64,000 nt of DNA from Escherichia coli (GTDB lineage: Bacteria > Pseudomonadota > Gammaproteobacteria > Enterobacterales > Enterobacteriaceae): NCBI RefSeq assembly GCF_024223415.1, contig NZ_CP100500.1; one strand, 5' to 3'. The position numbers are program-made. Of the stretch, positions 63,001 to 64,000 are shown piece after piece (within the stretch, counting starts at the first letter, position 1; every line of letters starts with the position of its first letter).

Positions 63001-64000
63001 ATTGCCAGGGTGGAGCACAGCATAGATGAAAGCGGCTTCACCACACAACTGGAGCTGGAAGCGAAAATCCCCGAATGGATAGCAGATTCAGGCGGATAAA
63101 ATTAAAATGAGCCATCTCCACTCAGCCAGATAAGGAGAAGCCATGTTCCGTTGTCCCCTGTGCGGTGCATCCGCACGTATCCGCACCAGTCGCAATGAAA
63201 ATGATTCAGGCACAGTTCGCCTGAAGTACTACCAGTGCAATAACCTCGAATGCGGGATCGGCTTTACCACACTGGAGGGTTTTAACAAATTCACATCAAA
63301 ACGCGCCCCGTCGCCGCAGGGTACAGAGCGGATACCGTGGGAAGATTTTCCGGGATCTCACAGGGGGAATGCTCAGATGAATCTTGATATTTAAGAACAA
63401 TAATCAGGTTGAGAGGACATCATAAGGCAAGTAGATTAACGGCAGATACTTTCCCGCAACCACGGGCAAGTATTTAATTATCCATGATGAAATATGACCT
63501 AAATTGTTTTTTGCCCGCCGGAAAGCGGGCATTTTTTTATTCTTTTGTGGTTATGGGGTCATCAGGAACCACGTGCAGATTATATTTTTGTTTTTTTGGC
63601 GTTCCTCCGGCAGCAACGAGTTCATCAATAAGACACTGACACGCCTGAACATCCCGGGCATGTCTTAGTTTCACCTTTATTGATTTAACCTTATCCTCAC
63701 CGGAGGAGAAATGCAGTTCAATCTCAATATCGTTTCTTCGGAACAATCTCATACGCCCCCCTGAATATATCAGAAATGCTAGTATCGAAAAATGAGAAAA
63801 CAGTTAGACAGGAGAAACATATTAACACAAATCATTTATACCTATAGATGAAATTATAATTTCATTCATGAATATGATAGATAACTATATTGTGAACAAA
63901 ATGAAAAATGGCTAAATTAAAAATGGGCATGGAGGAATGCCTCGTAATCAGTAATACATGATCCATACTTCCTTGTTTTGCCCGCCGGAAAGCGGGCATT

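What the first reader, a model, noticed from the sequence alone, without database searches (positions are those of the whole stretch)
63505..64000. Duplicated terminator-hairpin sequence flanking a small gene at the right edge of the prophage
The sequence TTGTTTT(TT)GCCCGCCGGAAAGCGGGCATT occurs at 63505-63534 and again at 63974-64000, where the window ends. The copies bracket about 440 bp holding a 71-aa minus-strand ORF and a very AT-rich stretch. The repeat could be a duplicated attachment or target site, a repeat-bounded cassette, or simply two similar terminators. I could not find a matching core near the integrase end (29480-29758), so the prophage att sites stay unresolved.
Basis: seen in the sequence. 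Interest (0 to 1): 0.4.

Follow-up and report, generated by a model that had tools for sequence, protein, structure and literature searches.

The report
Repeated terminators of phage small-RNA-like genes
The duplicated hairpin is not the prophage's attachment site. It is the shared transcription terminator of a short row of small, probably non-coding RNA genes that a rare P2-like E. coli prophage carries as cargo between its last gene (ogr) and its true right end, which lies about 820 bases beyond the window.

Summary
The repeat is real: 25 identical bases at 63509-63533 and 63976-64000, with none expected by chance. It is a + strand intrinsic terminator.

Identical E. coli genomes extend the sequence and show two more variants of the hairpin, 203 bp apart. 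Each of the four hairpins closes a small module of the same build:
- a conserved sigma-70-like promoter;
- a 5' stem-loop;
- a variable single-stranded stretch;
- UUUU, then the hairpin, then at least 7 U.

This is the layout of Hfq-type sRNA genes. The 71-aa ORF lies on the opposite strand between modules 1 and 2.

The true att core is CTTGACCTTCCCCTTGCTGG, in the copA promoter. attL is at 29670-29689. attR is inferred about 820 bp past the window end.

The same array sits in prophages at three different att sites, so it is phage cargo. It occurs in only 30 of 5426 complete E. coli genomes. It is absent from sequenced phages and from Rfam, and it is not REP-like.

The identical terminators coincide with block boundaries where arrays differ in module number. 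Expression of the modules is predicted, not shown.

Overall this is ordinary in kind (phage moron terminators), with a modest new element: an unannotated array of sRNA-like genes.

The parts
63143..63394 (+). ogr (late-gene activator), the last P2-type structural or regulatory gene before the cargo region
   Evidence: Pfam Ogr_Delta, E 4.9e-14. Annotated ogr/Delta-like in identical genomes.
63409..63437 (+). Predicted sigma-70 promoter of module M1 (TTGAGA-N17-TAGATT)
   Evidence: Promoter scan 9/12 and regex. The hexamers are shared with modules M3 and M4, while spacer sequence varies at constant length.
63444..63538 (+). Predicted M1 RNA (~95 nt): 5' stem-loop, AU-rich single strand, UUUUUU, terminator. 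It would also form the 3' end of ogr transcripts.
   Evidence: RNA fold -27.7 kcal/mol, z -3.4, 0 of 200 shuffles as stable. The 5' end is inferred from the promoter, not mapped.
63509..63538 (+). Hairpin copy 1: intrinsic terminator (stem 63512-63531, T7 at 63532-63538)
63537..63752 (-). ORF71, a small hydrophilic protein of unknown function. Its stop codon overlaps the T-run of hairpin 1, so the two are convergent.
   Evidence: PHROG 14142 (unknown function), E 4.9e-12. No Pfam, NCBIfam or PADLOC match. Only 5-8 relatives in billions of proteins. Relatives of 35-44% identity lie in a P4-like satellite and in a second locus with iteron-like repeats next to raiA.
63753..63889 (.). AT-rich spacer (27% G+C measured over 63753-63925) between ORF71 and M2. 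It holds a perfect 18-bp palindrome, ATGAAATTATAATTTCAT, at 63848-63865. It presumably holds the ORF71 promoter/operator.
   Evidence: The promoter/operator role is inferred.
63890..63918 (+). Predicted sigma-70 promoter of module M2 (TTGTGA-N17-TAAATT)
   Evidence: The hexamers are kept and the spacer varies at constant length in three further M2 alleles.
63925..64000 (+). Predicted M2 RNA (~81 nt; its last 5 U lie beyond the window)
   Evidence: RNA fold -25.8 kcal/mol, z -2.1. The sequence beyond 64000 comes from identical genomes.
63976..64000 (+). Hairpin copy 2: terminator of M2, and the first bases of a 203-bp tandem repeat (modules M3 and M4) that runs past the window end
   Evidence: TRF: period 203, 2.1 copies, L001 6877-7292.
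29670..29689 (.). True attL core, CTTGACCTTCCCCTTGCTGG (the copA promoter -35 and half of the CueR operator)
   Evidence: The same 20 bp lies just upstream of copA at the far end of the element (L001 7721-7740) and once in the uninterrupted K-12 spacer. Uninterrupted genomes match the window exactly up to 29689.
29783..29800 (+). Two direct repeats, TGGACAC/TGGACAT, 11 bp apart: candidate arm-type integrase sites of the P' arm
   Evidence: The same pair (TGGACAC twice, 11 bp apart) lies left of the attR core at L001 7665-7682. Their role is inferred from P2 attP organisation, recalled from memory.
29759..30802 (-). Tyrosine integrase at the left end of the prophage
   Evidence: Annotated phage integrase in genomes that share the junction.

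Best explanation
The two hairpins are + strand Rho-independent terminators. They belong to a row of four paralogous small transcription units (M1-M4) carried by a P2-like prophage as accessory cargo between ogr and attP.

Each unit has the same parts, in this order:
- a conserved sigma-70-type promoter (TTGAGN or TTGTGA, N17, TAGATT or TAAATT);
- a 5' stem-loop;
- a 30-40 nt variable single-stranded stretch;
- UUUU;
- the GCCCGC/GCGGGC hairpin;
- at least 7 U.

This is the architecture of Hfq-binding trans-acting sRNAs.

Hairpin 1 ends M1 and also any ogr read-through. Hairpin 2 ends M2 and begins a 203-bp tandem repeat (M3, M4) outside the window. ORF71 is an unrelated small gene on the other strand, lodged between M1 and M2.

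The hairpins are identical because the units are paralogues. Where related prophages differ in module number, the block junctions fall at these hairpins.

Shown: the repeat, the terminator features, the module architecture and its conservation, the cargo status, and the true att core. Inferred: promoter activity, RNA expression, Hfq dependence, any target, and that the shared hairpins served as crossover points.
For: Repeat and terminators:
- The repeat is exact and above chance.
- There are four + strand terminator calls, against 2.3 expected in shuffles.

Module conservation:
- Alignment of 6-8 modules shows invariant -35 and -10 hexamers.
- The spacer has a fixed 17-nt length but variable sequence.
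- The 5' stem-loop is conserved, with one-sided G-U changes.
- The middle is variable, with discrete alleles.
- TTTTGCCCGCC is invariant.

Structure and non-coding status:
- Folds give 5' hairpin, open middle and terminator; z is -3.4, -2.1, -2.3 and -0.8.
- 1-nt indels inside the conserved parts exclude coding on either strand.
- All terminators have at least 7 T and an upstream U-run, as described for Hfq-binding sRNA genes (PMC5558911).

Cargo status and rearrangement:
- The same array sits in prophages at the copA, serS and ihfA sites.
- Colinear blocks between arrays begin and end at terminators, and [ORF71-M2-M3] is tandemly duplicated in relatives.
- In a duplicated block the ORF71 copy is degenerate, while its neighbouring modules keep promoter and terminator.

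Precedent:
- Prophage sRNA families with conserved and variable parts occur at moron sites (PMC4104026).
Against: - There is no expression data.
- The promoters are only 9/12 consensus matches; M2's was found by a looser pattern and not by the scan.
- Sequence diversity is too low for real covariation: 1 compensatory pair of 19, covariation term +0.31.
- M4's fold is no better than shuffles (z -0.8).
- No Rfam family matches.
- No target was found in the window.
- The ~70 nt upstream of each promoter is conserved, with an imperfect inverted repeat, and is unexplained. It could mean the functional unit differs from the one drawn here.
Confidence: 0.6

Rival explanations
1. The hairpins are plain terminators that insulate phage cargo genes (ogr, ORF71, hok, hicAB, ORF73). 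On this reading the promoter-like sequences are inactive, and the 'modules' are duplicated spacer DNA with no RNA product of its own.
For: Terminator features are solid. The promoters are modest consensus matches. No covariation was found. There is no Rfam hit. Only a handful of nearly identical alleles exist, so conservation may reflect recent common descent rather than selection.
Against: M3 and M4 have no gene between one terminator and the next, so there is nothing to insulate. Between alleles, changes fall in the spacer and the middle stretch, while the -35, -10, 5' stem and terminator stay fixed. The modules stay intact where the adjacent ORF71 copy has decayed.
Confidence: 0.27
2. The hairpins are relics of attachment cores. 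P2-like phages often integrate into sRNA 3' ends. Repeated integration and imprecise excision at an sRNA terminator could have stacked captured sRNA 3' parts next to attP.
For: sRNA loci do serve as phage attachment sites (PMC3333887). From memory, the P2 core matches the cyaR terminator. The array lies next to attP. Blocks join at terminators.
Against: No hairpin or module exists at the integrase end. None exists in any E. coli genome outside the 30 carriers, so no host source gene is seen. Across 100,044 species there are only single unrelated hits. The present att core is a different sequence. The array is the same across three integrase/att types.
Confidence: 0.07
3. ORF71 with M1 and/or M2 forms a toxin-antitoxin-like pair, in which a convergent or divergent small RNA controls the ORF71 mRNA.
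For: M1 and ORF71 are convergent and overlap at the terminator and stop codon. M2 is divergent from ORF71 across an AT-rich spacer with a perfect palindrome. hok and hicAB addiction modules occupy the same region in relatives.
Against: ORF71 is hydrophilic and 71 aa long, unlike type I toxins. It matches no PADLOC or TA family. Its relatives occur without such RNAs. M3 and M4 have no partner ORF.
Confidence: 0.04
4. The hairpin is a dispersed REP-like or mobile repeat.
For: None, beyond the presence of two copies in the window.
Against: - Within E. coli, 30 of 5426 genomes carry it, always inside this prophage array.
- The degenerate terminator pattern gives 34 single hits in 100,044 species genomes, with no flank similarity.
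- Sequenced phages give none.
Confidence: 0.01

Closest known systems
Hfq-binding sRNA genes of enterobacteria (for example RyhB, SgrS, MicC)
   Same: A stand-alone promoter and a ~80-100 nt product. Layout: 5' hairpin, open seed stretch, U-rich tract directly before a G+C terminator hairpin, and at least 7 U after it (PMC5558911).
   Different: No expression, Hfq-binding or target data exist. No Rfam model reaches its gathering score: RyhB 20.8 vs 55 bits, AgvB 20.2 vs 56 bits. The genes are phage-borne and tandemly arrayed.
Prophage-encoded sRNAs and anti-sRNAs at moron sites of lambdoid prophages (AgvB, AsxR, EcOnc families; Tree et al. 2014, PMC4104026)
   Same: Small terminator-ended RNA genes carried as phage cargo at a fixed accessory position. 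They fall into related groups with a conserved part and a variable part.
   Different: The host here is a P2-like phage, not a lambdoid one. The position is ogr-attP, not downstream of PR'. The products are longer (80-100 nt, against 51-60 nt). The variable part lies in the middle or 3' half rather than at the 5' end. Four units lie in tandem.
Phage morons (promoter-gene-terminator cargo units; Juhala et al. 2000, as cited in PMC4104026)
   Same: Self-contained promoter-to-terminator units inserted between core phage genes. The region has lower G+C than the rest of the prophage: 27-42% in the stretches measured, against 55%. It is shared mosaically among phages with different integrases.
   Different: Here the 'gene' in M1-M4 is non-coding.
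P2-type attL/attR core repeats (for example the P2 core in the cyaR terminator; from memory)
   Same: A short direct repeat that looks like a terminator, near ogr at the prophage end.
   Different: The hairpin fails every att test. The real core is the 20-bp copA promoter sequence.

Membership tests
Intrinsic (Rho-independent) terminator | G+C-rich stem-loop followed at once by a T-run on the transcribed strand | tested here: met
   Stem of 7 pairs (6 G-C), loop of 6, then TTTTTTT, at both copies. Only the + strand qualifies. The reverse strand is followed by AAAAAACAA.
Intrinsic (Rho-independent) terminator | Transcripts end there in vivo or in vitro | not testable with these tools
   No transcript data are available.
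Hfq-binding trans-acting sRNA gene | Own promoter directly upstream of a short non-coding unit | tested here: inconclusive
   Promoter-like hexamers sit 17 bp apart, 9/12 for M1 and M4 in the consensus scan. All four fit a looser pattern. The hexamers are conserved across alleles while the spacers vary. Activity is untested.
Hfq-binding trans-acting sRNA gene | Terminator with at least 7 U, preceded by a U-rich tract (the Hfq-binding module) | tested here: met
   All module alleles read TTTT-hairpin-T(7-10). The criterion comes from PMC5558911.
Hfq-binding trans-acting sRNA gene | Non-coding | tested here: met
   1-nt indels between paralogues fall inside the conserved parts. The only ORFs run through terminators or promoters and are not kept in frame.
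Hfq-binding trans-acting sRNA gene | Expressed, Hfq-bound, and base-pairs with a target | not testable with these tools
   No complement longer than 11 nt exists in the window, which is the chance level.
Any Rfam family (including RyhB RF00057, AgvB RF02702, Hrs1 RF02628) | Covariance-model score at or above the gathering threshold | tested here: not met
   The best scores are 20-27 bits against thresholds of 41-56, all driven by the terminator. There are no gathering-level hits in 62500-64000.
Prophage attachment-site core (attL/attR) | The same sequence at both ends of the element and once in the empty site | tested here: not met
   No copy lies near the integrase, even with up to 3 mismatches. 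It is absent from the K-12 copA-glsA spacer. The sequence that does meet this test is CTTGACCTTCCCCTTGCTGG.
Prophage attachment-site core (attL/attR) | Core co-varies with integrase and integration site | tested here: not met
   The identical hairpin array occurs in prophages next to copA, serS and ihfA.
REP-like dispersed repeat | Many copies scattered in intergenic regions of the host genome | tested here: not met
   Within E. coli it is found only in 30 of 5426 genomes and only within this array. Across 100,044 species genomes there are single hits only.
Type I toxin-antitoxin locus | Small hydrophobic toxin with an overlapping antisense RNA | tested here: not met
   ORF71 is hydrophilic and 71 aa long, with no TA or defence family match. 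Overlap with M1 is limited to the terminator and stop codon.

The most novel reading that the evidence does not exclude
A rare lineage of P2-like coliphages carries a recombining tandem array of expressed Hfq-type sRNA genes. The genes share one scaffold (promoter, 5' hairpin, terminator) and differ in exchangeable seed stretches. This would let the prophage reprogramme host or competitor gene expression. One member (M3, just beyond the window) shares 10-11 nt with the RyhB seed, so it could mimic or compete with the host iron-sparing sRNA.
Probability: 0.15. Interest if true: 0.55.

Novelty: new member of a known kind. Interest (0 to 1): 0.3.

Why it matters
The element is about 35.15 kb and sits in the copA promoter. 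Its core rebuilds the CueR-controlled promoter at attR.

It also shows that the apparent 'att-like' repeat is a terminator shared by paralogous cargo units. Annotators could repeat that mistake.

If the modules are expressed, they would be an undescribed family of phage-borne sRNAs outside the lambdoid phages. They are absent from Rfam and from RefSeq annotation. Their array structure would give a simple system for studying how sRNA seeds diversify by duplication and exchange.

The element is rare (0.55% of complete E. coli genomes, many from poultry), and no function is shown. The general impact is therefore modest.

Tried and rejected
- **Known RNA families.** Rfam at permissive and gathering thresholds gave nothing real. 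A tRNA/tmRNA scan found none.
- **Sequenced phages.** megablast, blastn and tblastn against 50,697 phage records gave no match for the region, the modules or ORF71.
- **ORF71 function.** There was no Pfam, NCBIfam or PADLOC match. PHROG 14142 is of unknown function. Two very large protein searches gave 5 and 8 hits. A PDB profile search gave only noise. The AlphaFold model had pLDDT 63.6, so I did not use it for fold search.
- **More divergent modules for covariation.** I scanned IMG/VR, 100,044 species genomes and metagenomes. Only the same few alleles turned up, so covariation could not be tested.
- **Targets of the variable stretches.** The window holds only chance-level 11-mers.
- **Coding potential.** Small-ORF reading of the modules on both strands is rejected because of frame-breaking indels.
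- **Other repeat types.** CRISPR-like and ToxI-like repeat readings are rejected on spacing (467, 202 and 203 bp) and on the lack of partner genes.
- **Literature.** Searches for P2-like phage sRNAs, for copA-site integration and for the hairpin sequence itself found nothing specific.

Full report
**Observation**

The window ends in a P2-like prophage of E. coli:
- gpD at 61972-63099;
- ogr at 63143-63394 (Pfam Ogr_Delta, E 4.9e-14);
- integrase at 29759-30802.

The reported repeat is real. TTTTGCCCGCCGGAAAGCGGGCATT occurs exactly at 63509-63533 and 63976-64000. It has no other copy in the window even with 3 mismatches, and none appeared in 100 shuffles. Between the copies lie the 71-aa minus-strand ORF (63537-63752) and a 27% G+C stretch.

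**Extending the sequence**

The last 901 bases are 100% identical to six complete E. coli genomes and at least 92.8% identical in 30 of 5426. The window's left junction (glsA-integrase) is shared at 99-99.5% by five genomes: Ch1, GF60, CM2, CS5L and 24A16CRGN010. The window's own genome is therefore not exactly in the collection.

I read the right flank in CM2 (L001; window x = L001 x - 57099) and confirmed the same gene order in CS5L. Everything beyond 64000 is inferred from these genomes.

**Where the prophage really ends**

K-12 has an uninterrupted 261-bp copA-glsA spacer. The window matches it up to 29689. Uninterrupted genomes match query positions 1-130 of 29560-29960 at 100%. The rest of the spacer resumes in L001 at 7721.

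The 20 bp CTTGACCTTCCCCTTGCTGG is present at both junctions: window 29670-29689 and L001 7721-7740, which is window-equivalent 64820-64839. It occurs once in K-12. This is the att core. From my own knowledge of the copA promoter, it covers the -35 and half of the CueR operator. The full promoter is rebuilt at attR.

Pairs of TGGACA(C/T) direct repeats 11 bp apart flank the core at 29783-29800 and at L001 7665-7682. They fit arm-type integrase sites; that role is inferred. The element is about 35.15 kb.

The hairpin plays no part in any of this. The 'right edge' lies about 820 bp beyond the window.

**What the hairpins belong to**

Downstream of hairpin 2 there are two more variants, GCCCGCCAGAAGGTGGGC and GCCCGCCGTTGCGCGGGC, 202-203 bp apart. 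TRF reports a 203-bp repeat of 2.1 copies starting at hairpin 2. All four hairpins are + strand terminator calls.

Each hairpin is preceded, about 100-130 nt upstream, by TTGAGA, TTGAGC or TTGTGA, then N17, then TAGATT or TAAATT.

Alignments of the modules from several prophages show:
- invariant hexamers;
- spacers of constant length but variable sequence;
- a conserved 5' stem-loop with only pair-preserving one-sided changes;
- a 30-40 nt middle that occurs as discrete alleles;
- invariant TTTT-GCCCGCC...GGGC-T7 or more.

Predicted RNAs of 81-100 nt fold into a 5' hairpin, an open AU-rich stretch and the terminator (z -3.4, -2.1, -2.3, -0.8). Single-base indels in the conserved parts rule out coding on either strand.

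At least 7 U after the hairpin is the feature reported for Hfq-binding sRNA genes (PMC5558911). A U-tract before the hairpin is, from memory, also part of that Hfq-binding module.

I therefore read M1 (63409-63538) and M2 (63890 to about 64005) as two of four sRNA-like genes. Hairpin 1 also ends ogr transcripts.

**Cargo, not att, not REP**

The same array follows ogr in prophages at three sites:
- next to copA;
- next to serS, in a longer array with hok/gef;
- next to ihfA, with hicAB directly after M4's terminator.

Sensitive blastn with M1, or with M3-M4, finds only the same 30 genomes, 1-9 places each, with no RNA gene or other feature annotated for the modules. Sequenced phages have none.

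A degenerate terminator pattern gives 34 single hits across 100,044 species, with no flank similarity. IMG/VR and metagenome scans return only the same alleles. Rfam has no family for them.

**Why the hairpins are identical**

Colinear blocks between arrays start and stop at the terminators. For example, L001 6410-7315 aligns with L002 6245-7128. In L002, L056 and L060 the block ORF71-M2-M3 is repeated after a terminator. The ORF71 copy there is degenerate or truncated, while its modules are intact.

The pattern suggests that the shared terminators are the homology at which the array expands and shuffles; no recombination event was demonstrated. This is the grain of truth in 'repeat-bounded cassette'.

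**The small gene**

ORF71 has a G-rich Shine-Dalgarno-like run (GGGGGG) just upstream of its ATG, read directly from the sequence. It matches only PHROG 14142, of unknown function.

It has a handful of relatives:
- a 57-aa gene after the primase and a block of repeated TGTAATAA-like motifs in a P4-like satellite;
- the C-terminal half of 128-133 aa proteins, one of them in a locus next to raiA with iteron-like repeats and P2/HP1-type tail genes.

The AF2 model is low-confidence (strand-strand-helix, pLDDT 63.6), and I did not take it further. The function is unknown.

A perfect 18-bp palindrome (63848-63865) lies between ORF71 and the M2 promoter.

**Comparison with known systems**

The closest systems are Hfq-type sRNA genes and the prophage sRNA/anti-sRNA families at moron sites of lambdoid phages. 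Those families also combine conserved and variable parts (PMC4104026). This array works like those on paper, but it belongs to no described family, and expression is unproven.

sRNA loci can be phage att sites (PMC3333887). Here, however, every att test fails for the hairpin.

**Verdict**

The att reading is refuted and the 'similar terminators' reading is upheld.

The added finding is an unannotated four-unit array of sRNA-like genes in a rare P2-like prophage. The prophage's att core lies in the copA promoter.

This is ordinary in kind and modestly new in detail.

Noticed in passing
window 29670-29689 (attL); attR inferred at window-equivalent 64820-64839 (L001 7721-7740): The prophage is integrated in the copA promoter. 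From my knowledge of that promoter, the 20-bp core covers the -35 and half of the CueR operator. The full promoter is rebuilt at attR, but all DNA upstream of the -35 is now phage DNA. A truncated copy of the promoter at attL points into the prophage, antisense to the integrase gene.
   Followed up: yes
window 29560-29960 versus E. coli genomes: Twelve further complete genomes carry an integrase only about 83% identical at the same copA-glsA site. This spacer is therefore a recurrent attB for more than one P2-like integrase lineage.
   Followed up: partly
L001 7044-7082 (window-equivalent about 64143-64181) and L002 6214-6248, 6863-6897: The variable stretch of module M3 shares (C)TCACATTGCT, 10-11 nt, with the central region of RyhB, which from memory I take to be its seed. 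Only 4-7 of 2000 shuffles do as well, but the comparison was chosen post hoc. It may be a seed mimic or it may be chance.
   Followed up: partly
window 63848-63865: A perfect 18-bp palindrome, ATGAAATTATAATTTCAT, lies in the AT-rich spacer between ORF71 and the M2 promoter. It looks like an operator, or like back-to-back -10 elements.
   Followed up: no
L001 6907-6975 and 7109-7178 (beyond the window), upstream of the M3 and M4 promoters: About 70 nt upstream of each promoter are as conserved as the promoter itself. They contain an imperfect inverted repeat, CCCTGATTTTC-CAT-GAAAACTTCAGGG. Whether this is a regulator site or part of a longer RNA is unexplained.
   Followed up: no
L002 5105-5600 and 7125-7560; L004 3403-4003: In related prophages the same ogr-attP cargo region also holds hok/gef-type modules and a hicAB pair. 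One hok/gef copy is annotated; a second looks degenerate by eye. In L004 the swap point is exactly after the M4 terminator T-run.
   Followed up: partly
L012 4200-5180 and L010 5001-5800: Relatives of ORF71 sit in a P4-like satellite and in a locus next to raiA. In each, a block of short repeated motifs lies beside the gene (before it in L012, after it in L010). This suggests a small accessory gene family shared by P2-type phages and their satellites.
   Followed up: partly
window 1342-26914, minus strand: A 6925-aa ORF (4679-25456) lies with ORFs of 713, 391 and 451 aa. Judged by ORF sizes and by eye, the 451-aa one is TolC-like and the set looks like a type I secretion locus for a giant repetitive adhesin. 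It lies next to ybaT and may contribute to the window's G+C of 56%.
   Followed up: no
window 63926-63941, minus strand: The 5' hairpin of M2, read on the minus strand (GGCATTCCTCCATGCC followed by CATTTTTAAT), also scores as a weak terminator. It could stop leftward transcription before ORF71's promoter region.
   Followed up: no
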